A stretch of DNA of 64,000 bases, from assembly GCA_964349945.1 (NCBI GenBank), contig CAYGIH010000001.1, positions 169,218 to 233,217 of the forward strand, in the 5' to 3' direction. The notes beneath the pieces are model-generated. The model did no database searches. It saw only the letters and a list, made by a program, of their open reading frames with translations, and had not been told where the DNA came from. The first letter of the stretch is position 1. Every line of letters starts with the position of its first letter. Source of the stretch: an uncultured Candidatus Saccharibacteria bacterium (GTDB lineage Bacteria > Patescibacteriota > Minisyncoccia > Phycocordibacterales > Zambryskibacteraceae). Shown in pieces: positions 776 to 58,583 of the stretch. Position numbers and translations under genes: made by a program.

Positions 776-2026
776 ATGCGACAGAGCCAACTATTTACGA
801 GAACTCGAAAAGAAGCTCCAACAGACGAGGTTTCAAAAAACGCCCAACTTTTAATTCGTGGCGGTTTTATTCATAAGGAGATGGCTGGGGTATATTCTTA
901 TCTACCACTTGGTTTAAGGGTAATAAAAAATATTGAAAAGATAATCAGAGAGGAAATGAATGCGATTGGGGGAATAGAAATGAAAACTTCTGTGCTTCAA
1001 AACAAGGAAGTCTGGGAAAAATCAAATCGATGGGATGATGCGGTTGTAGATAATTGGTTTAAGACGAAGTTGAAAAATGGAGGAGAAGTTGGTCTGTCGT
1101 TCACAAACGAAGAAGCTTACTCTAATATTCTAAAGCAATACATCCATTCTTATAAAGATTTACCTGCTTATCCTTATGATTTCAAGGAAATTTTCAGAAA
1201 TGAAGCCAGAAGTAAGTCAGGGATAATGCGAGGTAGAGAATTTTATTGGAAGGCTTTGTACTCATTCTCCAGAGACTTAGATGACCATAATGTTTTTTAT
1301 GAGAAGTCAAAAGTGGCTTATAAAAATGTATTCGAGAGAGCTGGTATAGGTCAATCTACATATATAACCCTTGCATCAGGTGGAACCTTTTCAAAATATT
1401 CACACGAGTTTCAGACTATAAGTGAAGCAGGTGAAGATATTATTTATGTTGATGAGGATAAAAAACTAGCTATCAATAAAGAACTAATTAATGAAGAAAG
1501 TTTATTAAAGGAGATGGGTTTTGATAGAGAGAAATTGGTAGAGAGAAAAGCCATAGAGGTAGGTAACATTTTTACTCTTGGGACAAAGTTTTCAGAGCCA
1601 TTTGATCTAACTTATAAAAATGAAAAAGGTGAGGAAAAACTTGTTTTTATGGGTTCATATGGGATTGGTTTAGGTCGTCTTATGGGCACAATCGTTGAAC
1701 TATTATCTGATGAAAAGGGGATTATTTGGCCAAAAGAAATTGCTCCCTATAGAGTTCATCTGCTTATATTAAGTAATGACGAAAAAATTAAGGAACTCGG
1801 AGATGAGGTCTATAAAACGCTTGTTTCGAATAATATTGAAGTTCTTTATGACGATAGAGATTTGAGGGCTGGAGAGAAATTTGCTGATGCAGATCTTATA
1901 GGTATACCCAATTCAATTGTTATAAGTAATAAAACTATTGAATCTGGAATGTATGAATTGAAGGATAGAAGTAGTGGAGAAGCAAAGTTTGTTTCTTTGG
2001 AGCACCTTTTAACAGAGCTTAAGTAA
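776..2026 (+). CDS. proS: prolyl-tRNA synthetase, a compact form lacking the large editing insertion
   Basis: From the inner Met the sequence reads MRQSQLFTRTRKEAPTDEVSKNAQLLIRGGFI, which matches the ProRS N-terminus. The class II core and a C-terminal anticodon-binding region are present. The track ORF starts 48 nt earlier, but MRQSQ matches the canonical start. Confidence 0.9.
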   Translation: MRQSQLFTRTRKEAPTDEVSKNAQLLIRGGFIHKEMAGVYSYLPLGLRVIKNIEKIIREEMNAIGGIEMKTSVLQNKEVWEKSNRWDDAVVDNWFKTKLKNGGEVGLSFTNEEAYSNILKQYIHSYKDLPAYPYDFKEIFRNEARSKSGIMRGREFYWKALYSFSRDLDDHNVFYEKSKVAYKNVFERAGIGQSTYITLASGGTFSKYSHEFQTISEAGEDIIYVDEDKKLAINKELINEESLLKEMGFDREKLVERKAIEVGNIFTLGTKFSEPFDLTYKNEKGEEKLVFMGSYGIGLGRLMGTIVELLSDEKGIIWPKEIAPYRVHLLILSNDEKIKELGDEVYKTLVSNNIEVLYDDRDLRAGEKFADADLIGIPNSIVISNKTIESGMYELKDRSSGEAKFVSLEHLLTELK

Positions 2027-3093: not shown

Positions 3094-3850
3094 GTTAAAA
3101 AGTATTTATAGAGGCAAATTAATATTTGTTGTAATTCTGTTTGTTTTTTGTGTTATATTTTTTTCTTATTTTGATAAGAGTCTTATTAGAGGGGCTACTC
3201 CTATTTGGGTGATAGAAAATTCCTTTGTGCAAGGACTCACCAATGTATTCAGGTTGGTTAGATCAAAGCAATCACTAATAAGGGAAAATGAGATGCTAAA
3301 ATCCAAGGTTGCATCAAGTGAACTGGCCTTAAGTGTTTATGGAGGAATTGAAAGTCAAAATAATTTATTATTGGAAACTCTAGGGAGGGGTCAAAAAAAT
3401 GATTATATTAAAGCTTCAATCATCGCCAGACCTCCAAAAACTTTTTTTGATTCAATCATTGTTGATGTAGGAGAGAACTCAAACATTCGGATAGATGATA
3501 AAGTTTTAGCCCCTGAAGGAGCAATAATCGGTGTGGTTTCTGAAGTTTTTCCAAAAAATTCTAAGATTAAACTTTTCACTACAAGCGGAGAAATAACCCC
3601 GGCATACTTGGAGAGAGAGAGCACCCCTGTCGATTTGAAAGGTTTAGGAGGTGGGGTTTTCGAGGCAAGTGTCCCTAGAGATACAAAAGCAGTCATGGGG
3701 GACAGAGTGTTGTCTGCTCATATACGTGGAGAACTAATGGGTGTGATTGAGGAAATTGAAATGTCTCCAACAGATTCTTTTAAAAAATTAATGATAAGAA
3801 GCGCGGTTAATATTTTTAAAATGCATTTTGTAAATATTTCACATGAATAA
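3065..3850 (+). CDS. mreC: MreC-like rod-shape protein
   Basis: Its position after mreB, an N-terminal TM, a coiled-coil segment (ENEMLKSKVASSELA) and a beta-rich C-terminus. Confidence 0.6.
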   Translation: MKTLYHPKNRLKSIYRGKLIFVVILFVFCVIFFSYFDKSLIRGATPIWVIENSFVQGLTNVFRLVRSKQSLIRENEMLKSKVASSELALSVYGGIESQNNLLLETLGRGQKNDYIKASIIARPPKTFFDSIIVDVGENSNIRIDDKVLAPEGAIIGVVSEVFPKNSKIKLFTTSGEITPAYLERESTPVDLKGLGGGVFEASVPRDTKAVMGDRVLSAHIRGELMGVIEEIEMSPTDSFKKLMIRSAVNIFKMHFVNISHE

Positions 3851-4109
3851 GAGATTAACTTTGTCTTTAGTACTATTTTTATTAATTTTGTTTACTCCGT
3901 ACTATCTTTATTTGTTGGCTCTGGTAATGGCTATCATTTTTGTACCCTTCTTTTGGGAGGCCATCATCTTTGGATTTCTCGTTGATGTATTGTACGGGCC
4001 ATACACTCATATTGGTTTATCATACGAGTTTCCTGTAGGTATAATGGCAATAATATTAGTTGTTATTTTATTACCCATAAGGGAGCGTTTGAGATTCTAC
4101 AATGTATAA
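3843..4109 (+). CDS. mreD: MreD-like small polytopic membrane protein
   Basis: An 88-aa, very hydrophobic protein overlapping both mreC and mrdA in operon position. Confidence 0.45.
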   Translation: MNKRLTLSLVLFLLILFTPYYLYLLALVMAIIFVPFFWEAIIFGFLVDVLYGPYTHIGLSYEFPVGIMAIILVVILLPIRERLRFYNV

Positions 4110-5811
4110 TAATTTTTTTAGAAAATTTAAGAAAAAAATAGAAAGGAAGCATAAAGATATTGATCCAGAGGACATCTTTCTTGATTCAACGAACCTCCCA
4201 GGTTTTACTATCAATCGTTTTGAAGGAAGGATAGAAAAACCTATTTCTTCTATAACTTTTTTGTTGATGAAAATTACTCTTGTTTTGTTACTAATGCTCT
4301 TCTTTGTGAGGTTGTGGGATCTAAATATAGTGAATGGAGAGAATTTTAAAAAAATCTCAGAAAATAATCGTTTGGCTCATACACTCATAATTGCTAACCG
4401 TGGGGTGGTTTACGATAGGAATAAGATTGAATTAGCCACTAATGCTATTAAACAAGGTGGTGCAGACTTCGCAGAGAGGTTATATGCGCCTATTGAGGGC
4501 TTGTCTCATGTAGTAGGGTATGTGAAGTATCCGTCGAAGGATTCATCAGGGTTTTATTATGAAGAAGAATATCGAGGACAATCTGGTGTAGAAAAAACTT
4601 ACAATAATGTATTGGCAGGAATCAATGGTTTGAAAATCACAGAGACAAATGCTTTGGGTAAAGTAACTTCAGAAAGCGTTGTACGCAAACCAGAAAACGG
4701 TCGCGATGTCATTCTCTCTATAGATTCTAGATTAAATTCTGAATTATATTTGGCCATGAAAAACATTAAGGAAACCAGGGGTTTTACTGGTGGAGCGGGG
4801 GCAATAATGGATGTTAATACAGGAGAAATATTGGCACTCTCAAGTTTCCCCGGTTTTGATCAAAATATAGTCACTAGGGGAGAAAATAGAAAGGAAATTT
4901 CAAGATTATTCACCTCCAAAGACAAACCGTTTCTGGATAGAGCCGTCAGTGGTTTATATACACCTGGCTCAATAGTTAAACCGATTTTAGGATTGGCAGT
5001 TCTCCAGGAAAATATTATTTCTCCAGATAAACAAATACTTTCTACAGGATCTTTAATTGTGCCTAATCCATATGACAAAACAAAGCCCACTATATATAAA
5101 GATTGGAGGATAAACGGTTGGACAGATCTTAGGGAAGCATTGGCTGTTTCTTCTGATATTTATTTCTATGTAGTTGGTGGAGGTTTTGAAAGTCAAAAAG
5201 GCTTGGGGATAACTAATATCAATAGATATTTTGAAATGTTTGGCATGACCGAGAAGACTGGCATAGATCTCCCCGGGGAAAGTGTGGGTGTTATCCCAAG
5301 TCCAGAGTGGAAGAAAGAAAATTTCAATGGAGAACCTTGGAGGTTGGGGGATACCTACATTACTTCTATTGGACAGTACGGGACACAGGTGACTCTTCTT
5401 GAAGCTTTAAGGTGGACAGCGGCTATAGCAAACAAAGGCACGCTCCTAATTCCTTCTGTCGTTATAGGAGGTAGGCCACCTCAAGATAGGGTTTTTCGGA
5501 CTATTGATTTACCAGATAATGTTTGGAAAGTTGTTCAAGAGGGAATGAGGCGGGCAGTAGAAACAGGAACAGTTAGTGCTCTAAAGACTCCTGCAGTGGC
5601 CATAGCAGCTAAGACTGGAACGGCCGAATTGGGAGCCTTGAAGAACAGAGTAAACTCTTGGTCAGTAGGTTTTTTCCCATTTGAAAAACCTAAATATGCC
5701 TTTGCAATTCTCATGGAAAATGGTCCGGCGGATAATCCTGTTGGAGCTACTTACGCCATGCAAGAAGTGATTAATTGGATGATATTTAATACCCCTGAAT
5801 ACATAAAGTAA
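4102..5811 (+). CDS. mrdA: penicillin-binding protein 2 (elongasome transpeptidase)
   Basis: An N-terminal TM and the SxxK motif (TPGSIVKP), followed downstream by KTGTA. Located in the mreBCD operon. Confidence 0.8.
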   Translation: MYNNFFRKFKKKIERKHKDIDPEDIFLDSTNLPGFTINRFEGRIEKPISSITFLLMKITLVLLLMLFFVRLWDLNIVNGENFKKISENNRLAHTLIIANRGVVYDRNKIELATNAIKQGGADFAERLYAPIEGLSHVVGYVKYPSKDSSGFYYEEEYRGQSGVEKTYNNVLAGINGLKITETNALGKVTSESVVRKPENGRDVILSIDSRLNSELYLAMKNIKETRGFTGGAGAIMDVNTGEILALSSFPGFDQNIVTRGENRKEISRLFTSKDKPFLDRAVSGLYTPGSIVKPILGLAVLQENIISPDKQILSTGSLIVPNPYDKTKPTIYKDWRINGWTDLREALAVSSDIYFYVVGGGFESQKGLGITNINRYFEMFGMTEKTGIDLPGESVGVIPSPEWKKENFNGEPWRLGDTYITSIGQYGTQVTLLEALRWTAAIANKGTLLIPSVVIGGRPPQDRVFRTIDLPDNVWKVVQEGMRRAVETGTVSALKTPAVAIAAKTGTAELGALKNRVNSWSVGFFPFEKPKYAFAILMENGPADNPVGATYAMQEVINWMIFNTPEYIK

Positions 5812-5876
5812 AAGGATTGCTTTTTTGGTCGATTTGACGTAGTATACGTCCCCATAATCGTGTCCCAAAACAGCAT

Positions 5877-6344
5877 ATGCCCAAAGAAAAAGAGTATCTA
5901 ACAGAAGCAAAATTCAATGAATTCAAAGCAGAACTTCATGAGTTAAAAACCAAGAAACGCAAGGAAATTGCTGAGGCTTTGGAGTTTGCTAAATCTCTTG
6001 GAGATTTGTCTGAAAACGCAGAATATCATGATGCCCGTGATCTACAAGCGAGAGTTGAAGACAGAATAAATCACCTCGAAGCACTTCTAAAAACTGCATC
6101 TATTGTGGCCTGCCATGATACTAATGCTGTTTCTGTTGGTTCTACCATCACCCTCTCAAGGGAAGGAAACAAAGAAAATAAAATTTACACTATTGTAGGT
6201 GCAGAAGAATCTGATGTCTCTTTGGGGAAAATTTCTATGCGCTCTCCACTTGGTGTAGCGGTAATGGGCAAGAAGAAAGGAGATACCTTCACTTTTAAAA
6301 CTCCAGGGGGGACTGTGAACTATAAGGTTATTGATATAAAATAG
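5877..6344 (+). CDS. greA: transcription elongation factor GreA
   Basis: An N-terminal coiled-coil carrying the acidic tip (LGDLSENAEYHDARD) and a C-terminal FKBP-like domain. Confidence 0.9.
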   Translation: MPKEKEYLTEAKFNEFKAELHELKTKKRKEIAEALEFAKSLGDLSENAEYHDARDLQARVEDRINHLEALLKTASIVACHDTNAVSVGSTITLSREGNKENKIYTIVGAEESDVSLGKISMRSPLGVAVMGKKKGDTFTFKTPGGTVNYKVIDIK

Positions 6345-6348
6345 GGGC

Positions 6349-7836
6349 ATGGCCTCCATCGAAGAAATCCAAGAAGCGCGCTTAGGCAAGCTTCAATTAC
6401 TAAAGGATAAAGGTATTAATCCTTATCCAATTGTTTCTCATCAAGATTATACTAACGCTCAAGCCGTAGAAAACTTTGGAGAAATTTCTTCTTCTGGAAA
6501 ATCTATTTATATGGTGGGGAGGATTTTATCTCTTCGTGCACAGGGCAAAATTATATTTATTACTTTTGATGATGGCACAGCGAGATTTCAAGCACTACTT
6601 AAATCTGGCGAACCACTACTACAAGAAACATTTGATTTATTTGAACAAGCATTTGATATTGGAGATTTTGTAGAGGTTAAAGGGACATTGTTTGTGACCA
6701 AACGTGAGGAGAAAACTATTTTGGCAGAAGATATTAGGATGCTTTCCAAATCTCTCCGCCCACTTCCGGAGAAATGGAATGGGCTTCAAGATCCAGAAGA
6801 GAGATTCAGAAGGCGATATCTGGATATAATTTCTAACCCAGAACTTAAAGATGTTTTCCAAAAGAAAGCTAAGTTCTGGAACACTATCCGAGAATATATG
6901 CTTTCAAAAGATTTTCTAGAAGTTGAAACTCCAGTGCTTGAGAATACCACTGGTGGTGCTGAAGCGCGTCCATTTATCACACATCACAACGCATTCGATA
7001 TGGATGTTTTTCTTCGTATTTCAGCGGGGGAGTTATGGCAAAAGAAACTGCTCGTTGCTGGATTCCCAAGAGTTTTTGAAATAGGACGAATTTTTAGAAA
7101 TGAAGGTATATCAAACGAACACCTGCAGGATTATACTCAGCTTGAATACTATATGGCTTATGCAGATTTTGAAGTGGGGATGGAAATGACTAAGGAGCTT
7201 TATAGACTCATTGCAGATAAAGTATTTGGCACAACTAAATTTAGTATTAGAGGTGTAAATATTGATTTAGGTAAAGAATGGGAAGTATATGATTTTTGTA
7301 CGGTTATTAAAGAAAAATTTGATATAGATCCATTAGACACAACAGAGAAAGAAGTCCTTGCTGTTCTGGATAAAAATAATATAGAAAGAGATAAAGACAC
7401 AAACATCGAAAGAGGAGTTGATTTACTTTGGAAGGGCCTAAGGAAGACTATCGCTGGTCCCGGATTCCTTATTGGAGTGCCTGTATCTATGGAGCCACTA
7501 GCGAAGAAGAATAGAAATAATCCAAAGACTGTAGAGAGATTCCAAGTTATCCTCGCGGGGAGCGAGATGGGTAAGGGCTTTAGTGAGTTAAATGACCCAG
7601 TCGATCAGAAAGAGAGATTTATGAGTCAACAAGCTAAGCGTGATGCAGGGGATGAAGAAGCACAGATGGCTGATATGGAATATGTAGAAGCTCTTGAATA
7701 CGCGATGCCCCCAGCATTTGGTTTTGGACTTTCAGAAAGATTGTTTAGTTTCCTCATGGATATGTCTGTGCGTGAGACACAACTCTTTCCTCTAATGAGA
7801 CCAAAGAATAAAGGGAATTCAGAGATTGACAAATAG
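6349..7836 (+). CDS. lysS: lysyl-tRNA synthetase, class II
   Basis: An OB-fold N-terminus, FRNEGISNEHLQDYTQLEYYMAY (motif 2) and a C-terminal GxGxGxxR-type motif 3. Confidence 0.9.
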   Translation: MASIEEIQEARLGKLQLLKDKGINPYPIVSHQDYTNAQAVENFGEISSSGKSIYMVGRILSLRAQGKIIFITFDDGTARFQALLKSGEPLLQETFDLFEQAFDIGDFVEVKGTLFVTKREEKTILAEDIRMLSKSLRPLPEKWNGLQDPEERFRRRYLDIISNPELKDVFQKKAKFWNTIREYMLSKDFLEVETPVLENTTGGAEARPFITHHNAFDMDVFLRISAGELWQKKLLVAGFPRVFEIGRIFRNEGISNEHLQDYTQLEYYMAYADFEVGMEMTKELYRLIADKVFGTTKFSIRGVNIDLGKEWEVYDFCTVIKEKFDIDPLDTTEKEVLAVLDKNNIERDKDTNIERGVDLLWKGLRKTIAGPGFLIGVPVSMEPLAKKNRNNPKTVERFQVILAGSEMGKGFSELNDPVDQKERFMSQQAKRDAGDEEAQMADMEYVEALEYAMPPAFGFGLSERLFSFLMDMSVRETQLFPLMRPKNKGNSEIDK

Positions 7837-50603: not shown

Positions 50604-52238
50604 CTATATTACCACGGGCAATTCCATGTAGAAAGTTGAACCTTGGTTAGCGCCCTTAGAATCAACCCATACTCTGCCCTTGTGGGCTTCAACCACAGCC
50701 TTCACGAATGCGAGTCCATAACCAGTAGAGTTCACGTTGTATTTCAAGGAATCTTTACCTCGACCACCTTTCGTGAAGAGCTTGGCTCTGTCTTCTGGTG
50801 CTATGCCAACTCCAGTATCCTCAACAGAGAATAGAATCTTGTCATCGTTTCTAGAAAGATGAATTTTCAATCCACCACTTTGTGTATAGCGAATAGAGTT
50901 ATCAATTAAATTCCTCACACTTTCTTTTATTTGAACATTGTCCCCTATCATATTATAGTTTCCATCATCAATTTTTGATTCATAGGCTAAACCAGCCTTT
51001 AGAGCACTATCTTTTTGTCCTTGGATTGTGTCTTCGACCAGTTCCTTCATATCAAATCTGTTCTTCGCATAAATAAGTGTACCTGTCTCTGCGCTTGAAC
51101 CGTTTAAAACTTGTTGGACGAAACCGACCCCTTCGGTCAACGATTCAAAACCCTCTTTAATCATTGGTCTTGATTCATCATTTATCCCATAACCATTTTC
51201 TGAAAGCAGTTCAGCGAAGATATTTCTAGACTTTGACAAATAGCCTTTGATTTGATGATTCATAATGTGAATCAAGTTTGATTGTCCTTCGTTCGCTATT
51301 TGAAGTGATTCTCGAAGCTGGATTTCTCGTTTGACACTTCTAATAAGTAAATATCCAAGAATAGTGAAGAAAAATAATGTAATAACTACTACAATCTGCA
51401 CAGATTCAATTCGTCTTAAGAAAAGAATTGCAAATGTCAAAATCCAAAGTGCTGTAATTAATAATTGAGTGGCAATTAATTTTGTATTGAATAAGTGATA
51501 TTTAACAATCAAATATGCCAACATGGCCATGAAAACTGGTATACCAAATAGTCCGTACTGTCCAATTTCCCAATTTCTAATTAAACTCCCAACAACATTT
51601 CCCATGGCAAAGGATAATAAGAAAAACACCGCACCACTAGTTATTAGTGCAACTTTTATTTTTTCAGCCCTATCCTTAAATTGTATAAATCTCTTTATTC
51701 CAAAACCTAATATCCAGAGACTAAATAATATTTCAATTGCGTACCCATAAAAAGCCAAATTTCCTTCTATTGCCTCGCGATTGCAATTAGTGAGATCATA
51801 TTCAGTCAAAGCAAATCTTGTGGAAGTAAGTATTACCGTTGGAAGAAGCAATCCAAAAATAATAAGTTTTTTTCTGAACGATATATCTTTTCCGTCAATC
51901 AAGGCGTACGTAAAGAAAAGAGTTCCTGCATATATCATTGGCTCAATTAAAACCAATAATGACCAAAAAAACATAATAAGAGAAGGTTTTTCATTTGCCC
52001 ACAAAACTAAGTCAGAGAAAAGCCAAATGGACAAAAGAATGATTGTTATCGCAAACCATCTTGTGGATAAAAGTTTTTTATTTTTGAAAAATATAAATAA
52101 TGCAAGAAGCAGAGATATAATGAGTGGCAGTAAATGAGAGTAATAGACGAGATTACCAAAAACATTATTAGAAAATATTAAGAATTTTGCTGTTCCCCAA
52201 TCACACATTTGTATATATTCAATGACTGTTCTCTCCAT
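50604..52238 (-). CDS. sensor histidine kinase with a multi-pass N-terminal domain; no adjacent response regulator
   Basis: About 8 TMs, a HisKA H-box (IMNHQIKGYL), and HATPase N/G boxes (DTGVGIAPED, GYGLAFVK). Confidence 0.8.
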   Translation of the reverse strand: MERTVIEYIQMCDWGTAKFLIFSNNVFGNLVYYSHLLPLIISLLLALFIFFKNKKLLSTRWFAITIILLSIWLFSDLVLWANEKPSLIMFFWSLLVLIEPMIYAGTLFFTYALIDGKDISFRKKLIIFGLLLPTVILTSTRFALTEYDLTNCNREAIEGNLAFYGYAIEILFSLWILGFGIKRFIQFKDRAEKIKVALITSGAVFFLLSFAMGNVVGSLIRNWEIGQYGLFGIPVFMAMLAYLIVKYHLFNTKLIATQLLITALWILTFAILFLRRIESVQIVVVITLFFFTILGYLLIRSVKREIQLRESLQIANEGQSNLIHIMNHQIKGYLSKSRNIFAELLSENGYGINDESRPMIKEGFESLTEGVGFVQQVLNGSSAETGTLIYAKNRFDMKELVEDTIQGQKDSALKAGLAYESKIDDGNYNMIGDNVQIKESVRNLIDNSIRYTQSGGLKIHLSRNDDKILFSVEDTGVGIAPEDRAKLFTKGGRGKDSLKYNVNSTGYGLAFVKAVVEAHKGRVWVDSKGANQGSTFYMELPVVI

Positions 52239-52404: not shown

Positions 52405-52884
52405 TTAACTTCTAATATTATACTCCTTTATAAAATATTTGGGTATAAATGGTAAATATTCTTTATAAATGTTTTTGGGGAGAAATTGTATTGATTTAAT
52501 AATCTTCCTGCACTTCTTTGAGCCGCATTTACATTTCATTTGCCATAATTCGTCTAACTCCAATATTGAATAATCAATGGTAAGTTCCTCTCCAGCCTGA
52601 ATATTTCGTATAGCAACAAATGTTACCGCCCCTTTAATTCCTAGATTTGGTTCACAAGAATGATTAACAAAAGACAGGGGGTTGTCTTCATTTGGGTTTA
52701 GCCATAAATTCTTAGAGATGCTCATCCAATTAGGTCCAAATAATGAATCCTTTTTAGAGTGAACAAAAAACTTCACTAGCTTTCCTTTTGCAATGAATGC
52801 AGTCTCACCTTTTTTAAGATTTTTTTTAGAAAAAACTCCTTTTCCGTGTACCTTACTGCTTGAACTGTAGGTTTTTTCTGACAT
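52405..52884 (-). CDS. SET-domain protein (lysine methyltransferase fold) with a post-SET Cys cluster
   Basis: GKGVFS, NHSCEPN, ELTIDY, and CKCGSKKC. Confidence 0.75.
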   Translation of the reverse strand: MSEKTYSSSSKVHGKGVFSKKNLKKGETAFIAKGKLVKFFVHSKKDSLFGPNWMSISKNLWLNPNEDNPLSFVNHSCEPNLGIKGAVTFVAIRNIQAGEELTIDYSILELDELWQMKCKCGSKKCRKIIKSIQFLPKNIYKEYLPFIPKYFIKEYNIRS

Positions 52885-53640: not shown

Positions 53641-54057
53641 ATGCTAATGGTTAAAACTAAACTCGGTTCAAGTTCTATACATGGTATAGGACTCTTCGCA
53701 GATCAATTTATACCCAAGGGCACTACCACCTGGAGATATGTTCCCCATTTTGATTTGAAAGTTGACCCAGACGATTTGTTAAGGTTATCAGAACCAGCTA
53801 GAAAATTGTTTTGGAGATACGCTTATGTTGATAAGCACAATAATCATTATATTTTATGTTTTGATGATGAGAGGTTTATTAATCACTCTGACAATCCTAA
53901 TATTATCCAAAAAAGAGTAGGCAATGAGATTGAAGGCCGTGAAGTGGCGGCTAGAGATATTCAAGTTGGAGAGGAGCTCACAGTAAACTATTATGATTTT
54001 GATAAAGATGCAGAAAGAAAACTAAAAATGACTGGTGTATACGAGTATTTGAAATAA
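53641..54057 (+). CDS. minimal SET-domain protein of 138 aa
   Basis: HGIGLFA, INHSDNPN, and EELTVNY. It has no post-SET cysteines. Confidence 0.7.
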   Translation: MLMVKTKLGSSSIHGIGLFADQFIPKGTTTWRYVPHFDLKVDPDDLLRLSEPARKLFWRYAYVDKHNNHYILCFDDERFINHSDNPNIIQKRVGNEIEGREVAARDIQVGEELTVNYYDFDKDAERKLKMTGVYEYLK

Positions 54058-54166
54058 TTCCTTTATAACTTGATTTATATAAATAATGTTGTATTCTACA
54101 TTAAGAATTAATGGGGCTAGGTATCCCCTACGCGCATCATTCGCTCATTAACAAAAAGGAGGCAGC

Positions 54167-55249
54167 ATGCCGTCGATACAGGCGAAGATTGTTGGGGATT
54201 TTTGTAATCTTCGGTGCACATACTGTCGTGATCGGGATTTTGATCAGGGCGGGAAACGAGTTATGACTCAAGAAGTGCTACAGGCTCTTATCAGTTCGCT
54301 GGCGAATCTGCCTGGAGGACTACAGCGGATGCATTGGCTCGGAGGTGAACCAACGCTTGCTGGCCTGAGTTTCTTTGAGGAAGTTGTCAAACTTCAGTTG
54401 AGTCATGCAAACAAAAAATGGCTCAACACTATTCAAACCAACGCAACTCTCATCAACCGTGAGTGGGCCGAATTCTTCGTAGCAAATGATTTCAAAGTTG
54501 GTGTCAGTGTGGACGGAACATCTCAGACACACGATGCTGATCGGATAAATCTTGCTGGTCACAGCACCTACGACAAAGTTATTAAGGGAGCTAACATCCT
54601 GCGAGAGTATGGTGTTAACCCATCAGTAATTTGTGTTGTGACCAAGAAGAATGCACATCTTGGAGCGGAGATGTTGCGAAGCTTGGTTCAAGCGGGCTTC
54701 ACCAACATTGCATTCAATGCATTTTACAATACGGCGAGCGACCTGCAGAAAGACCCATTCGCAGTGAGTGACGATCTATGGCTACAATTTCTCAAGGATG
54801 TATTTGAGGAATGGATTGCCATTGATCGTCCAGATGTGAAGATTCGAGAACTAGATGGCATCCTTGCTTGGACGCGTGGTCGCAGTGCTCGTTCCTGTGT
54901 CTTTCGTGGCTCGTGTTCCAATTGGATGCTTGTTGACTATGACGGAAAGGTTTACCCATGTGAACGACTTGGAAGATCTTCATATTTTGGCAATGTGAAC
55001 TCAGTTGCATCCTTCTCAGAGATCTTGGATGCATCAACTCACAAGGCATTCACCGCTCAAACACTTCGCATGCCTGACAAATGTAAATCTTGTAGCATGC
55101 AAAGTTTCTGTCACAATGGGTGTGTTGCCCACAGAATTGAAGATGGGGACACTTCGCCTCACTACGCATATTGTGGAAGTCGCTTGTCGTTCTATGATTA
55201 TCTGCTGGAACGCATCGGAATTGTAAATGACGTAGCGGTTCCGATGTAG
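54167..55249 (+). CDS. radical SAM / SPASM-domain enzyme (anSME-like peptide maturase)
   Basis: A CNLRCTYC (CxxxCxxC) cluster near the N-terminus. There are C-terminal Cys clusters (CVFRGSCSNW ... CKSCSMQSFCHNGC). An AAAGGAGG RBS is present. GC is higher than in the flanks. Confidence 0.85.
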   Translation: MPSIQAKIVGDFCNLRCTYCRDRDFDQGGKRVMTQEVLQALISSLANLPGGLQRMHWLGGEPTLAGLSFFEEVVKLQLSHANKKWLNTIQTNATLINREWAEFFVANDFKVGVSVDGTSQTHDADRINLAGHSTYDKVIKGANILREYGVNPSVICVVTKKNAHLGAEMLRSLVQAGFTNIAFNAFYNTASDLQKDPFAVSDDLWLQFLKDVFEEWIAIDRPDVKIRELDGILAWTRGRSARSCVFRGSCSNWMLVDYDGKVYPCERLGRSSYFGNVNSVASFSEILDASTHKAFTAQTLRMPDKCKSCSMQSFCHNGCVAHRIEDGDTSPHYAYCGSRLSFYDYLLERIGIVNDVAVPM

Positions 55250-55307
55250 CATGTGCCGAACAATTTCGGCAACCAAGCTACGCCAGACCTAAAGGAGGTA
55301 GGTTATC

Positions 55308-55526
55308 ATGACAGCAATCGCAGTGCAGTGTCGAGCTCTGAACGCGGCAATTGATCGTGTTGAGCACTTGCCCCGTCCAGGAGATACGCCCCTGTTCCTA
55401 GTCACTGACAGATACGATGATTACGTCGATATCCCGTACAGTGACTACAGTGACTACAGCGATTCTCCTTACGTCGACTGTCCGTATGATGATTACCAGG
55501 ACTATGAAGATGCTCCAGATCCGTAG
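55308..55526 (+). CDS. candidate RiPP precursor peptide of 72 aa; the acidic core is built from Y-x-D/E triplets
   Basis: A perfect AAGGAGG RBS lies 7 nt upstream. The core is RYDDYVDIPYSDYSDYSDSPYVDCPYDDYQDYEDAPDP. It is immediately 3' of the rSAM/SPASM gene, contains no Lys, and the DNA carries a tandem TACAGTGAC repeat. Confidence 0.55.
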   Translation: MTAIAVQCRALNAAIDRVEHLPRPGDTPLFLVTDRYDDYVDIPYSDYSDYSDSPYVDCPYDDYQDYEDAPDP

Positions 55527-55546
55527 GAGCAAATTGTAGTCATGGG

Positions 55547-55582
55547 CCGGATAATGTGCAGTGCACATCGTCCGGTTTTTTT
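55547..55582 (+). terminator. intrinsic terminator closing the rSAM-peptide unit
   Basis: CCGGA-taa-TGTGCA-g-TGCACA-tcg-TCCGG followed by TTTTTTT. Confidence 0.6.
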
Positions 55583-55599
55583 ATATACTTAAGCTAAGT

Positions 55600-56352
55600 A
55601 TGACTAATAATTCAGGTGAAAATCCAATTCTAAAGCTTGGTTCCTGTGAAGCGGGGCCAGTTTTGTATTTTTTTGGTGCCAGACACACAAATAATCCTGA
55701 TGATATTCAGTTTGTTCAATTAAAAAATTTTTGGGATGAGTTTCTAAATATATCTAGTAAGAATAATGCCGTTTTTGTTGAAGGAGTAATACATGAGGTA
55801 TCAAAGAATTATATTGACGCAATCAAACTGTATGGTGAGACAGGAGCAATTCAATGGTTGGCAAAAGAATCAAATATTCAAGTGTTACGTCCAGAACCAA
55901 ATGATGTAGAGCAACGAAAATATCTTTGCTCCTTATTTGATCCAAAAGTAGTTGCTTATTCATTAATTATTCAAAACCTTGGTGCTTGGTTTAGACACTC
56001 AAGGAATAATGGATTTAAAAATGCTATAGAGAATTCAGTAGATAGAGAAGTAAAATACAAAGATATCTACGAATTCATACCAAATAATGCCTGGTTCTTT
56101 AATCAACATAAGGAGATATTTGGTGAACAAAATTTAGAAGATAAAAACTTCCTTGATTCTGTTTCTGATCCTAGAAAAGGCATATCAATAGTAAATAGAG
56201 TTATATCTTCTAGAACAAAAATGCGCAATGAGTATATCCTAGTAGCAATTAGTGAAGCTTTAAAATTAAAGAAAAATATTTTTATAGTTTATGGTAGTGG
56301 TCACATTCCTGTTCTAGAAAACTCTTTACGCGAGTTATTTGATAGTAAATAG
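55600..56352 (+). CDS. TraB/GumN-family-like protein (putative hydrolase)
   Basis: LYFFGARH near the N-terminus and IFIVYGSGHIPV near the C-terminus resemble the GT.H / GxGH signatures of the TraB/GumN family. The start is taken at the inner ATG. Confidence 0.4.
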   Translation: MTNNSGENPILKLGSCEAGPVLYFFGARHTNNPDDIQFVQLKNFWDEFLNISSKNNAVFVEGVIHEVSKNYIDAIKLYGETGAIQWLAKESNIQVLRPEPNDVEQRKYLCSLFDPKVVAYSLIIQNLGAWFRHSRNNGFKNAIENSVDREVKYKDIYEFIPNNAWFFNQHKEIFGEQNLEDKNFLDSVSDPRKGISIVNRVISSRTKMRNEYILVAISEALKLKKNIFIVYGSGHIPVLENSLRELFDSK

Positions 56353-56810: not shown

Positions 56811-58583
56811 CTATATCATCCCAGCTTTCTTTGCAAGTTTTTCTAATTTACTAATATCCTTCTCTATACTTTTTAAACCAATTTCGAAAAATTCAGGATT
56901 AGTGATATCTATACCAATACTTCTAAAAATATCTGTCGGACTCATTGATCTACCGGCAGACAAAAATTGCTCAATTTTCTTTGAATAACTTTTATCTTGT
57001 TGCCACTTCTCAAACAAGGCTCTGCTAATTAATTGGCCATAGGCGTATGTATAAACATAAAAAAACCTACGAATATGTGACCAATATACAAAAGCATATC
57101 CATCATCTGACGTTACTTCCATTGCATCTCCAACATAGGATTTTAGATGCTTAGTCATCAAGGAGGCTATTCCAGCTTTTGGTAACTCGCCTCTTTCTCT
57201 AATAGTATTATGAAGTTCAAGTTCAAAATTGAAACAGGCAATTTGTCTAAATATAGTAGAAATATCACCTAAAATTTTGTTGTGTAAAAGAATTATATTC
57301 TCATTTATAGATAATTGTTTTTCTACTTCAGCCACAGCAACATTTGCGAAAAAAGTACTAGCCACCTCAGCCGTTGCTGTAGAATAATGCGAATATCTAG
57401 GAGGTTGAGACTTGCTTAATTCAGTATGAATGGCATGACCCATTTCGTGGGCAAGTGTCTCAAGGGAACGAATATCGTCATTATGATTTAAAAGAATAAA
57501 TGTTGGATGCTTTGCTCTCCCCCAGCAATATCCACCTCCTTTCTTACCTTTTCTGGGGTAAACATCAATTTGCCTATTGTTAACAAATTCACTTAGCATA
57601 TTGGCAAACTTTGGATCAATTTTACTAAACGCATTCCTGACTAAAACCACAGACGAAGGGAAATCAAATTTTCTCTTTATTTCTCCAATCTTTACAGCAC
57701 GGTCTTCCATTTTAAGCTTCTTTTCCTTAAGGAGTTTTGAATGAAGTTTAAAGAATCTATGACTAATCTTGAAATTTTTTGTCACCAAATTAACTAAATT
57801 CATTACTGTCTTCTCATCATTCTCATGTCCAAGCACAGTTGAACTATATGGATGCTTAAATCCTCTTCGAATATCTAAAATTTTTTTATAATTATAAACA
57901 GCGTTTATTTCAGCTTCAGGAAAATCACTGTTTTCTATAAGCTTCTCGTTTATTTTTTTACTTAATACTCTGCGTTCTTTTAAAGGTAAATCCATTAATA
58001 TACCTAATGCTTTTGAAAGTGGTATTGATTTGCCCTTATGTACAATCATTTGTTGGCTTAGTACTTTATTGAACCCATCAACCCACATTGAATAGCTAGT
58101 TTGAGATAATAAATCTACCACCTGTTCCTCTCCTTCACTAAGATTATATTTCGCACTATTAAAGTTTCTTTGGAGAGAATATCGAAAGTCCATTAATGAA
58201 GTTTCCTTTAAATATGCTAATTGCTTTGATAAAGGTATTTTGCCCACAGTGAGACTAAAAAATGCTGTCTTATTCGTGGCATTGGTTATTCTTTGAGAAA
58301 ATTTTGTGGCGAATGAGTTTGCCTTCTCATCTTTAGAATTAATATCAGCACGAAGTGCCATGTACCACCATGGTTTACTTCCACTCATTTTCATTCTTAG
58401 TTCTTCTCTATCCTTTAGAGCGGTCAAAAGCTTTGAAGCAGAAGCAGTAAAATCCTTGTTCTTATATTTCTTTTCAAAAGCAGTACAGCTTTTTTCTATC
58501 AGTAATAGATCTTTTTCTATTTGTGGGTCATTCTCATTTTTATATAGAAGGCCTAAATTCCATGTTGTTTGCTTTTGGTTCAT
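56811..58583 (-). CDS. pepF: oligoendopeptidase F (M3 family)
   Basis: HEMGHAIH zinc motif, and length. Confidence 0.85.
   Translation of the reverse strand: MNQKQTTWNLGLLYKNENDPQIEKDLLLIEKSCTAFEKKYKNKDFTASASKLLTALKDREELRMKMSGSKPWWYMALRADINSKDEKANSFATKFSQRITNATNKTAFFSLTVGKIPLSKQLAYLKETSLMDFRYSLQRNFNSAKYNLSEGEEQVVDLLSQTSYSMWVDGFNKVLSQQMIVHKGKSIPLSKALGILMDLPLKERRVLSKKINEKLIENSDFPEAEINAVYNYKKILDIRRGFKHPYSSTVLGHENDEKTVMNLVNLVTKNFKISHRFFKLHSKLLKEKKLKMEDRAVKIGEIKRKFDFPSSVVLVRNAFSKIDPKFANMLSEFVNNRQIDVYPRKGKKGGGYCWGRAKHPTFILLNHNDDIRSLETLAHEMGHAIHTELSKSQPPRYSHYSTATAEVASTFFANVAVAEVEKQLSINENIILLHNKILGDISTIFRQIACFNFELELHNTIRERGELPKAGIASLMTKHLKSYVGDAMEVTSDDGYAFVYWSHIRRFFYVYTYAYGQLISRALFEKWQQDKSYSKKIEQFLSAGRSMSPTDIFRSIGIDITNPEFFEIGLKSIEKDISKLEKLAKKAGMI

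What the first reader, a model, noticed from the sequence alone, without database searches (positions are those of the whole stretch)
54167..55582. Radical-SAM/SPASM maturase plus a 72-aa peptide built from nine Y-x-D/E triplets: a candidate new RiPP locus
A GC-richer unit runs from a strong RBS through an anSME-like rSAM with C-terminal SPASM cysteine clusters. A perfect AAGGAGG RBS then leads into a 72-aa ORF, which is followed by a strong intrinsic terminator. The peptide has a hydrophobic, leader-like N-terminal half (MTAIAVQCRALNAAIDRVEHLPRPGDTPLFLVTD). Its core is lysine-free and acidic: RYDDYVDIPYSDYSDYSDSPYVDCPYDDYQDYEDAPDP. Tyrosine recurs at i/i+3 in the triplets YDD, YVD, YSD (three times), YVD, YDD, YQD and YED. 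The DNA under YSDYSDYSD is a tandem 9-bp TACAGTGAC repeat, which suggests the repeat number could vary. SPASM-type rSAM enzymes are the established maturases for peptides crosslinked at short repeated aromatic-containing motifs, for example three-residue cyclophanes and streptide-type crosslinks. A Tyr-x-Asp repeat core next to such an enzyme fits that logic. The specific motif and the genomic context, a tiny AT-rich genome, look unusual.
Basis: partly seen in the sequence, partly recalled or inferred. Interest (0 to 1): 0.85.

Follow-up and report, generated by a model that had tools for sequence, protein, structure and literature searches.

The report
Tyr-x-Asp cyclophane peptide cassette
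This is a real three-gene cassette from a tiny-genome (CPR) bacterium: a radical-SAM enzyme, the Tyr-x-Asp repeat peptide it most likely ring-closes, and a probable peptide-cutting enzyme; the peptide chemistry is an already described kind, so only the third gene adds anything new.

Summary
A 360-aa radical-SAM/SPASM gene (54167..55249) is followed by a 72-aa ORF (55308..55526). In that ORF all nine tyrosines carry Asp at +2. A strong hairpin plus U7 terminator follows.

The pair is conserved. In about 100 related loci, mostly from CPR/Patescibacteria MAGs, a small ORF sits directly after the enzyme gene. It has a shared leader (A-L-x-G/A-A-F-x-R-I/V) and an aromatic-x-Asp/Asn core. Aromatic-to-Asp/Asn spacing at i+2 is enriched (z = 16.5). 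More distant enzyme clades pair with Trp-x-Asp/Asn or XyeA-like cores. This is the signature of triceptides, the three-residue cyclophane RiPPs.

A Tyr-x-Asp motif is already characterised: YxdB forms a Tyr-C3 to Asp-Cβ link. The locus is therefore not a new RiPP class.

The enzyme scores best against anSME but below its cutoff, and it passes no curated family cutoff.

It is present in 29 of 32 close loci and has a TIKI/TraB/PrgY fold with invariant 2His/2Glu. It is probably the peptidase. I found no such protein in a RiPP protease review.

Verdict: new member of a known kind, moderate interest.

The parts
54156..54162 (+). Shine-Dalgarno AAGGAGG of the rSAM gene
   Evidence: Read directly from the sequence; 4 nt before ATG 54167.
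54167..55249 (+). Radical-SAM/SPASM peptide maturase, 360 aa, with no N-terminal RRE extension. Predicted three-residue cyclophane synthase.
   Evidence: Pfam Radical_SAM plus SPASM. RS-cluster Cys at 13/17/20 and eight conserved SPASM Cys. Best NCBIfam match is anSME TIGR03942 at 270.6 bits, below the 349.45 cutoff, and no family passes its cutoff. Best PDB match is anSMEcpe 4k36-4k39, E 1.2e-51; ChlB (9gm3), named as a triceptide synthase in PMC11499958, scores 5e-14. 312 homologs, mostly from CPR MAGs.
55292..55298 (+). Shine-Dalgarno AAGGAGG of the precursor gene
   Evidence: Read directly from the sequence; 9 nt before ATG 55308.
55308..55526 (+). Precursor peptide gene, 72 aa plus stop
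   Evidence: An ORF at this position is conserved downstream of the rSAM gene in related loci. Indels relative to the close relative P0122 are in frame.
55335..55361 (+). Conserved leader motif ALNAAIDRV (residues 10-18), the presumed enzyme recognition element
   Evidence: An 18-aa leader HMM was run against 15,979 stop-to-stop segments from 98 loci. It gave 38 hits at E<0.05, all at the 3' end of or just downstream of the rSAM gene on the same strand. A related motif occurs in clade-B precursors.
55413..55511 (+). Core with nine non-overlapping Tyr-x-Asp motifs (Y36 to D68), the predicted cross-link sites
   Evidence: 9 of 9 Tyr have Asp at +2, and 0 of 20,000 shuffles reach this. Across the family, 125 of 147 core aromatic residues have D/N at +2, z 16.5.
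55437..55459 (+). Tandem 9-bp repeat TACAGTGAC encoding YSD units
   Evidence: TRF: period 9, 2.6 copies, 100% match. The relative P0122 has one fewer unit.
55544..55582 (+). Intrinsic terminator or attenuator: hairpin plus U7, between the precursor gene and the third gene
   Evidence: MFE -21.5 kcal/mol, z -3.95. A hairpin plus T-run in the same position occurs in 21 of 30 non-redundant clade-A loci, with different stem sequences.
55600..56352 (+). TIKI/TraB/PrgY-fold protein, 250 aa, soluble. Predicted peptidase acting on the modified peptide.

Best explanation
This is a three-gene triceptide-type RiPP cassette in a CPR/Patescibacteria chromosome.

Shown: gene 1 encodes a radical-SAM/SPASM enzyme carrying the cysteines for the radical-SAM cluster and two auxiliary [4Fe-4S] clusters, with no RRE domain. 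Gene 2 encodes its precursor. The precursor has a conserved leader (A-L-x-A/G-A-F/I-x-R-V/I) and an acidic core with nine Tyr-x-Asp units. The enzyme-precursor pairing, the leader and the aromatic-x-Asp unit are all conserved across related loci.

Inferred mechanism: the enzyme binds the leader and reductively cleaves SAM. It abstracts a hydrogen from Cβ of the Asp at position i+2 and joins that carbon to the ring (C3) of the Tyr at position i. Each event gives one three-residue cyclophane and a mass change of -2 Da. Up to nine rings (-18 Da) are possible. This is the chemistry reported for YxdB on Y-x-D motifs.

A hairpin/U7 terminator follows the precursor gene and probably attenuates transcription into gene 3. 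Its effect on transcription was not measured.

Gene 3 encodes a cytoplasmic TIKI/TraB/PrgY-fold hydrolase with an invariant 2His/2Glu set. Inferred role: it cuts the modified peptide, most likely removing the leader.

Export and biological role are unknown.
For: 1. Domains and cluster cysteines are present.

2. A small ORF with a conserved leader follows the rSAM gene. All 38 leader-HMM hits among 15,979 six-frame segments lie at that position. I recovered 30 unique clade-A and 25 unique clade-B precursors.

3. Aromatic(i)-Asp/Asn(i+2) is enriched: 125 observed against 43.3±4.9 in shuffles for clade A (z 16.5), and 85 against 27.1 for clade B (z 14.1). The i+1 spacing in clade A and the i+3 spacing in both clades are not enriched. 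In the window, 9 of 9 Tyr have Asp at +2.

4. Enzyme clade and core type change together. Clade A pairs with Y/F/H-x-D, clade B with W-x-D/N, and clade C with NWRG..W.KC (XyeA-like). A 27%-identical Rubrivivax enzyme sits next to a GrrA-like WxN repeat. These are the Ω1-X2-X3 motifs that define triceptides (PMC11499958; PMC12912966).

5. YxdB is reported to make a C3(Tyr)-Cβ(Asp) link (PMC11002830).

6. The position after Y-V-D varies among C, S, A and I across relatives, so the single Cys is not the conserved target.

7. The residue after the auxiliary-cluster-I Cys265 tracks the precursor type. It is E-R or D-R in the clades with Asp/Asn at X3, E-Y in clade C, and D-F in anSMEcpe.

8. For gene 3: synteny in 29 of 32 loci, TraB/ChaN fold, invariant H29/E61/E80/H235. 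The TIKI superfamily uses a 2His/2Glu site for peptide or ester hydrolysis (PMC6254334). PrgY/TraB are thought to degrade a peptide pheromone (PMC7117660).
Against: No chemistry was measured. The cross-link type, its regiochemistry and the number of rings are all inferred from motif logic and a literature precedent.

The enzyme is more similar to anSME (270.6 bits; PDB E 1e-51) than to any curated cyclophane synthase model: AmcB 133, GrrM/OscB 110, YhhB 107, FxsB 98, XyeB 73 bits. It passes none of their cutoffs.

I could not obtain the YxdB sequence, so relatedness to the one characterised Y-x-D enzyme is unknown.

The peptidase role of gene 3 rests on fold and motif only. TIKI-fold proteins also include esterases and a heme-binding protein (ChaN). 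Pfam TraB_PrgY_gumN is below threshold, and Foldseek against the PDB found nothing.

No transporter is part of the cassette.
Confidence: 0.65

Rival explanations
1. It is the same enzyme-precursor pair, but the chemistry is not a Tyr-C3 to Asp-Cβ cyclophane. Alternatives include an aryl-ether (C-O) link, a Tyr-Tyr link, or a Cys58-to-Asp/Glu thioether (ranthipeptide-like).
For: SPASM enzymes of this neighbourhood catalyse C-C, C-O and C-N links (PMC11499958). DynA and PapB models score 191 and 144 bits. Many clade-A cores carry D-C-P/G-x-D/E near the C-terminus, giving a Cys-x-x-Asp/Glu spacing.
Against: The only feature common to all cores is aromatic-x-Asp/Asn at i+2. The Cys position is replaced by Ser, Ala or Ile in close relatives and is absent in clade B. 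The PapB and DynA cutoffs are not met. The Y-x-D precedent gives a C-C link to Cβ.
Confidence: 0.2
2. The enzyme is a genuine anaerobic sulfatase-maturating enzyme that makes formylglycine in a sulfatase encoded elsewhere. The small ORF is a bystander.
For: The best HMM and best PDB matches are anSME. All anSME cluster cysteines are present. An acidic residue follows Cys265, where anSMEcpe has its Cys-Asp pair.
Against: The score is below the equivalog cutoff: 270.6 against 349.45. No sulfatase signature occurs in any frame of the 64-kb window. The enzyme gene is always followed by the leader/Ω-x-D peptide. The anSME-like InterPro subfamily is known to contain peptide-modifying enzymes (PMC11002830). 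The whole genome was not available.
Confidence: 0.03
3. The 72-aa ORF is a chance ORF in a repeat-bearing intergenic region and is not translated.
For: It is short. Overlapping ORFs exist in other frames. NCBI's annotation of a close relative (L098) did not call it.
Against: It has a perfect SD at 9 nt. An ORF with the same leader is conserved down to about 35% enzyme identity. Indels are in frame. The i+2 motif is enriched and other spacings are depleted. A profile search of 1.84 billion proteins returns only small peptides of the same family plus two long proteins (P0193, P0196) whose sequences were not inspected.
Confidence: 0.02

Closest known systems
Triceptides made by three-residue cyclophane-forming rSAM/SPASM enzymes (3-CyFEs), specifically the Y-x-D system YxdA/YxdB (Sugiyama et al., JACS 2022, as summarised in PMC11002830)
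   Same: An rSAM/SPASM maturase sits next to a leader-plus-core precursor. The core is built from Ω1-X2-X3 units, and here it is the very motif (Tyr-x-Asp) on which YxdB forms C3(Tyr)-Cβ(Asp). The enzyme has no RRE domain: its match begins at the first residues of the XyeB, YhhB and GrrM profiles.
   Different: The enzyme clade is restricted to CPR MAGs in my sample. It is closer to anSME than to any curated 3-CyFE model and passes none of their cutoffs. Its relationship to YxdB itself is untested. It carries nine tandem motifs. Its partner gene is a TIKI/TraB-fold protein. The review of RiPP leader proteases that I could search has no mention of TraB, Tiki, GumN or PrgY.
Anaerobic sulfatase-maturating enzyme (anSMEcpe, PDB 4K36-4K39; TIGR03942)
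   Same: It is the best sequence match (179 bits to the PDB chain; 270.6 bits to the HMM). The length is the same, there is no RRE, and the three-cluster cysteine pattern is the same, including the Y-P-C-acid motif.
   Different: The score is below the equivalog cutoff. The substrate is a dedicated adjacent peptide without a C/S-x-P-x-R motif. Arg267 replaces Phe after the Cys-acid pair. No sulfatase is present in the window.
GrrM/OscB (Trp-x-Asn/Asp) and XyeB triceptide systems; DynA (dynobactin)
   Same: More distant relatives of this enzyme (33-39% identity) pair with W-x-D/N or NWRG..W.KC cores, like these systems. DynA is the second-best HMM match.
   Different: HMM scores are far below the cutoffs: GrrM 110 against 310, XyeB 73 against 450, DynA 191 against 450. 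The aromatic residue here is Tyr.
TIKI/TraB/PrgY/GumN/ChaN/erythromycin-esterase superfamily (for gene 3)
   Different: It is soluble, with no membrane anchor. It scores below Pfam's threshold. It is linked to an rSAM RiPP cassette.

Membership tests
Triceptide / 3-CyFE RiPP systems | Radical-SAM core (CxxxCxxC) plus a SPASM domain carrying the cysteines for two auxiliary clusters | tested here: met
   Pfam Radical_SAM plus SPASM. C13/C17/C20 plus C244, C250, C265, C306, C309, C315, C319 and C336 are conserved in 16 homologs.
Triceptide / 3-CyFE RiPP systems | An adjacent precursor whose core carries Ω1-X2-X3 motifs (Ω = aromatic). Definition from PMC11499958 and PMC12912966. | tested here: met
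   Nine Y-x-D motifs in the window. Across the family, 125 of 147 core aromatic residues have D/N at +2, z 16.5. The precursor is always directly downstream of the enzyme gene.
Triceptide / 3-CyFE RiPP systems | Aromatic C(sp2) to Cβ(sp3) cross-link between residues i and i+2 (-2 Da per motif) | not testable with these tools
   This needs co-expression with MS/MS and NMR.
Triceptide / 3-CyFE RiPP systems | Sequence membership in a curated cyclophane-synthase model (XyeB, GrrM/OscB, FxsB, YhhB, AmcB) | tested here: not met
   Scores against cutoffs: 73/450, 110/310, 98/370, 107/445 and 133/425 bits. The result is the same for clades B and C.
YxdA/YxdB (Y-x-D triceptide) | Tyr-x-Asp motif in the core | tested here: met
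   Precedent: PMC11002830.
YxdA/YxdB (Y-x-D triceptide) | Orthology of the enzyme with YxdB (WP_226048651.1) | not testable with these tools
   The primary paper is not held and no supplement text is held for PMC11499958. The sequence could not be obtained.
Anaerobic sulfatase-maturating enzyme (TIGR03942) | Score at or above the curated equivalog cutoff | tested here: not met
   270.6 against 349.45 bits.
Anaerobic sulfatase-maturating enzyme (TIGR03942) | A sulfatase substrate with a C/S-x-P/A-x-R motif in the genome | tested here: inconclusive
   No sulfatase signature in six frames of the 64-kb window. The rest of the genome was not available.
PapB-type ranthipeptide maturase | HMM cutoff, and repeated Cys-X3-Asp/Glu motifs in the precursor | tested here: not met
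   143.9 against 340 bits. The core has one Cys only, and that position is replaced by S, A or I in relatives.
TIKI/TraB/PrgY/GumN superfamily (gene 3) | α/β fold with a parallel β-sheet core shared with TraB, ChaN and Ere | tested here: met
TIKI/TraB/PrgY/GumN superfamily (gene 3) | Catalytic 2His/2Glu set (PMC6254334) | tested here: inconclusive
   H29, E61, E80 and H235 are invariant in 43 sequences, within GxxH contexts. I could not superpose them on a solved active site.
TIKI/TraB/PrgY/GumN superfamily (gene 3) | Pfam PF01963 gathering score | tested here: not met
   12.6 bits against 26.8. 6 of 9 members hit weakly, best E 6.3e-4.

The most novel reading that the evidence does not exclude
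The TIKI/TraB/PrgY-fold protein is a dedicated peptidase for these cyclophane peptides, for leader removal or self-protection. That would be a protease class not yet recognised in RiPP biosynthesis. On this reading the rSAM-precursor-TIKI cassette is a swappable peptide module of CPR bacteria. It may produce a signal read by the polytopic histidine kinase that lies next to it in the window and in several other loci, in a pherotype-like arrangement.
Probability: 0.3. Interest if true: 0.6.

Novelty: new member of a known kind. Interest (0 to 1): 0.4.

Why it matters
CPR/Patescibacteria have tiny genomes and few recognised secondary-metabolite genes. A conserved and apparently mobile peptide-modification cassette in them points to peptide-mediated interaction with hosts or neighbours.

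For RiPP enzymology, the locus offers three things. First, a compact Y-x-D substrate with nine tandem sites. Second, an enzyme clade that sits between anSME and the characterised cyclophane synthases. Third, a candidate specificity residue, Arg267, that tracks Asp/Asn at X3.

The conserved TIKI/TraB-fold partner, if it is a peptidase, would link the enterococcal pheromone-shutdown fold to RiPP maturation.

None of this changes the main point: the core chemistry and the motif are already described.

Tried and rejected
- The word-indexed protein search with the 72-aa peptide found only 3 relatives. The family became visible only by reading ORFs downstream of enzyme homologs in fetched loci.
- My first leader regular expression was wrong and gave almost no hits. 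It was corrected.
- The primary YxdB paper is not held and no supplement text is held for PMC11499958. A profile search of 1.84 billion representatives with the precursor returned only the same CPR leader family. Relatedness to YxdB therefore stays open.
- I considered the Cys58 thioether and formylglycine readings and rejected them as the conserved chemistry, because that position varies among C, S, A and I.
- I considered using the clade-B W-HExxH partner as evidence of non-orthologous peptidase displacement and withdrew it. HEXXH proteins in triceptide clusters can be αKG-dependent β-hydroxylases, and this one hits no curated model.
- I considered recent horizontal transfer as the explanation for the GC-rich block. 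The enzyme gene is GC-richer than the third gene in most clade-A loci whatever the flank GC, so this looks like a property of the cassette.
- Rfam found only one tRNA in the window and no riboswitch near the cassette.
- Literature searches for CPR/Patescibacteria rSAM RiPPs found nothing specific.
Full report
**Observation.** The 360-aa protein has Radical_SAM and SPASM domains. It has a CxxxCxxC motif at C13/C17/C20. Eight further cysteines are conserved across 16 homologs, matching the two auxiliary clusters of SPASM enzymes.

The 72-aa peptide has nine tyrosines, and every one has Asp two residues later. Shuffles of the core average 2.75 such motifs, and none of 20,000 shuffles reaches nine. 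The 9-bp tandem repeat is real: 55437..55459, 2.6 copies. A close relative has one fewer unit, in frame.

The hairpin plus U7 after the stop codon folds at -21.5 kcal/mol with z -3.95. The two genes are GC-richer than their surroundings.

**Is it a gene pair?** The enzyme has 312 detectable relatives. Almost all come from Patescibacteria/CPR metagenome-assembled genomes and are annotated only as 'radical SAM protein' or 'hypothetical'. I fetched 17 genome loci and 80 metagenome loci around relatives.

In nearly all of them a small ORF starts within a few dozen bases of the enzyme's stop codon. An 18-residue leader model was built from 11 of these ORFs. It was searched against all 15,979 stop-to-stop segments of the 98 loci in six frames. 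It hit 38 times at E<0.05, always at that position and on that strand. The small ORF is therefore a conserved partner and not a chance reading frame.

**What the precursors say.** I recovered 30 distinct precursors from enzymes at least 43% identical to the window's (clade A). I recovered 25 from enzymes 33-39% identical (clade B). Both clades share the leader A-[LIV]-x-[GA]-A-[FLI]-x-R.

- Clade-A cores are built from Y/F/H-x-D units.
- Clade-B cores are built from W-x-D/N units.
- A third small group has NWRG..W.KC cores like XyeA.
- A 27%-identical Rubrivivax enzyme sits beside a GrrA-like WxN repeat.

An aromatic residue followed by Asp/Asn at i+2 occurs 125 times in clade A, against 43±5 in shuffles (z 16.5). 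It accounts for 125 of 147 aromatic residues. The i+1, i+3 and i+4 spacings are at or below expectation. The residue after Y-V-D is Cys in the window but Ser, Ala or Ile in relatives. The lone cysteine is therefore not the conserved target.

**Comparison with the known.** An aromatic-X-X unit next to an RRE-less rSAM/SPASM enzyme is the definition of triceptides (PMC11499958; PMC12912966). About 3,900 such pathways have been catalogued and ten maturases characterised.

The Tyr-x-Asp motif itself is characterised. YxdB forms a C3(Tyr)-Cβ(Asp) bond (PMC11002830 citing Sugiyama et al. 2022). The locus is therefore not a new RiPP class, and the motif is not new.

I could not obtain the YxdB sequence or the primary paper. 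Whether this CPR clade is the YxdB clade or an independent one remains open. A WP_ (RefSeq) accession suggests a cultured organism and hence a different lineage, but that is inference from memory of database policy.

**Enzyme placement.** Among NCBIfam models the best match is anSME, at 270.6 bits against a cutoff of 349.45. Next are DynA (191) and PapB (144). The curated cyclophane synthases follow: AmcB 133, GrrM/OscB 110, YhhB 107, FxsB 98 and XyeB 73. None reaches its cutoff. Clades B and C behave the same way.

The best solved structure is anSMEcpe (E 1e-51). ChlB, a triceptide synthase, scores 5e-14.

The anSME rival is weak for four reasons.
- The score is below cutoff.
- The window has no sulfatase signature.
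- The enzyme is always paired with the peptide.
- The anSME-like InterPro subfamily is known to include peptide modifiers.

One lead concerns the residue after the auxiliary-cluster Cys265-acid pair. It is Arg in the clades whose precursors have Asp/Asn at X3 (83 of 98 loci). It is Tyr in clade C and Phe in anSMEcpe. Work on HtkB and HaaB shows that a single active-site residue can set X3 preference. Arg267 is a candidate for that role here, by inference only.

**The third gene.** A 250-aa ORF (55600..56352; the gene caller's start is P0157) lies directly downstream. It is on the same strand in 29 of 32 non-redundant clade-A loci with enough flank, but in only 3 of 31 clade-B loci.

H29, E61, E80 and H235 are invariant. 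This matches the 2His/2Glu catalytic set of the TIKI superfamily, whose members hydrolyse peptide or ester bonds (PMC6254334). PrgY/TraB are thought to degrade a peptide pheromone (PMC7117660).

The protein has no membrane segment. I infer a cytoplasmic peptidase acting on the modified precursor, most likely for leader removal. A 2023 review of RiPP leader proteases does not mention this fold.

**Operon anatomy.** A hairpin plus T-run lies 35-55 nt after the precursor stop codon in 21 of 30 non-redundant clade-A loci, and the stems differ in sequence. A terminator or attenuator between the precursor gene and the third gene is therefore a conserved feature.

The enzyme gene is GC-richer than the third gene in most loci, regardless of host GC. 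I cannot explain this. Flanking genes differ between loci, which suggests a mobile or frequently exchanged cassette. The window's flanks (histidine kinase, SET protein) resemble those of L006. That locus carries a cassette whose enzyme is only 50% identical to the window's.

**Verdict.** The RiPP interpretation is supported by comparative evidence. The specific chemistry, Tyr-C3 to Asp-Cβ cyclophanes in up to nine rings, is inferred with moderate confidence from a published precedent. The novelty claim is reduced to a new member of a known kind. Its distinctive features are an uncurated enzyme clade from CPR bacteria and a conserved TIKI/TraB-fold partner.

Noticed in passing
window 50604..52238 (-): A polytopic histidine kinase (about 8-9 hydrophobic segments, then HATPase_c) lies 2 kb upstream of the cassette, with no response regulator beside it. 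Homologs at 42-53% identity lie next to cassettes in L006/L054, in L008/L037 (directly upstream, same strand) and in the clade-B loci L067/L068. This could be lineage synteny or a functional link.
   Followed up: partly
window 52405..52884 (-) and 53641..54057 (+): Two SET-domain proteins flank the region upstream of the cassette. Only the first has a homolog near a cassette elsewhere, in L006.
   Followed up: partly
clade-B loci, e.g. L066 1636..2583 (-): A roughly 300-aa gene lies downstream of the precursor on the opposite strand (convergent) in 22 of 38 clade-B loci. It has an invariant W-H-E-x-x-H. It gives a weak Pfam SprT-like hit (E 1.8e-4) and no NCBIfam hit. It could be a metallopeptidase, or an αKG-dependent HEXXH hydroxylase as reported in other triceptide clusters.
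   Followed up: partly
clade-A loci generally; window 54167..56352: The rSAM gene's GC and GC3 exceed those of the adjacent TraB-like gene by about 10 points in most loci, whatever the flank GC. Unexplained.
   Followed up: partly
window 55562..55600: A promoter-like TGCACA-16-TATACT overlaps the terminator. Its second hexamer ends 10 nt before ATG 55600, and no clear Shine-Dalgarno precedes that start. The third gene may have a separate or leaderless start.
   Followed up: no
window 56811..58583 (-): A peptidase M3 (oligoendopeptidase F-like) gene lies close to the cassette in the window, but not in any other fetched locus.
   Followed up: partly
L098 (GCA_049287105.1) 1338..1686: The public annotation of a close relative calls the rSAM and the TraB-like gene but not the precursor between them. 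The same DNA in a Logan assembly (L099) has it called.
   Followed up: yes
L014 about 3580..4030 (+); L015 3676..3894 (+) and 5208..7385 (+): Distant relatives at 27-28% identity pair with other triceptide-like precursors. Rubrivivax has a Gly-rich W-x-N repeat. Chryseobacterium has a W/H-x-Q/S/K core plus a C39-peptidase ABC transporter.
   Followed up: partly
L024 900..1334 (+); L042 1303..1917 (+): In these two loci the leader-motif hit lies in a stop-to-stop segment that begins inside the rSAM gene. The precursor may be fused in frame to the enzyme's 3' end, or there may be an assembly frameshift.
   Followed up: no
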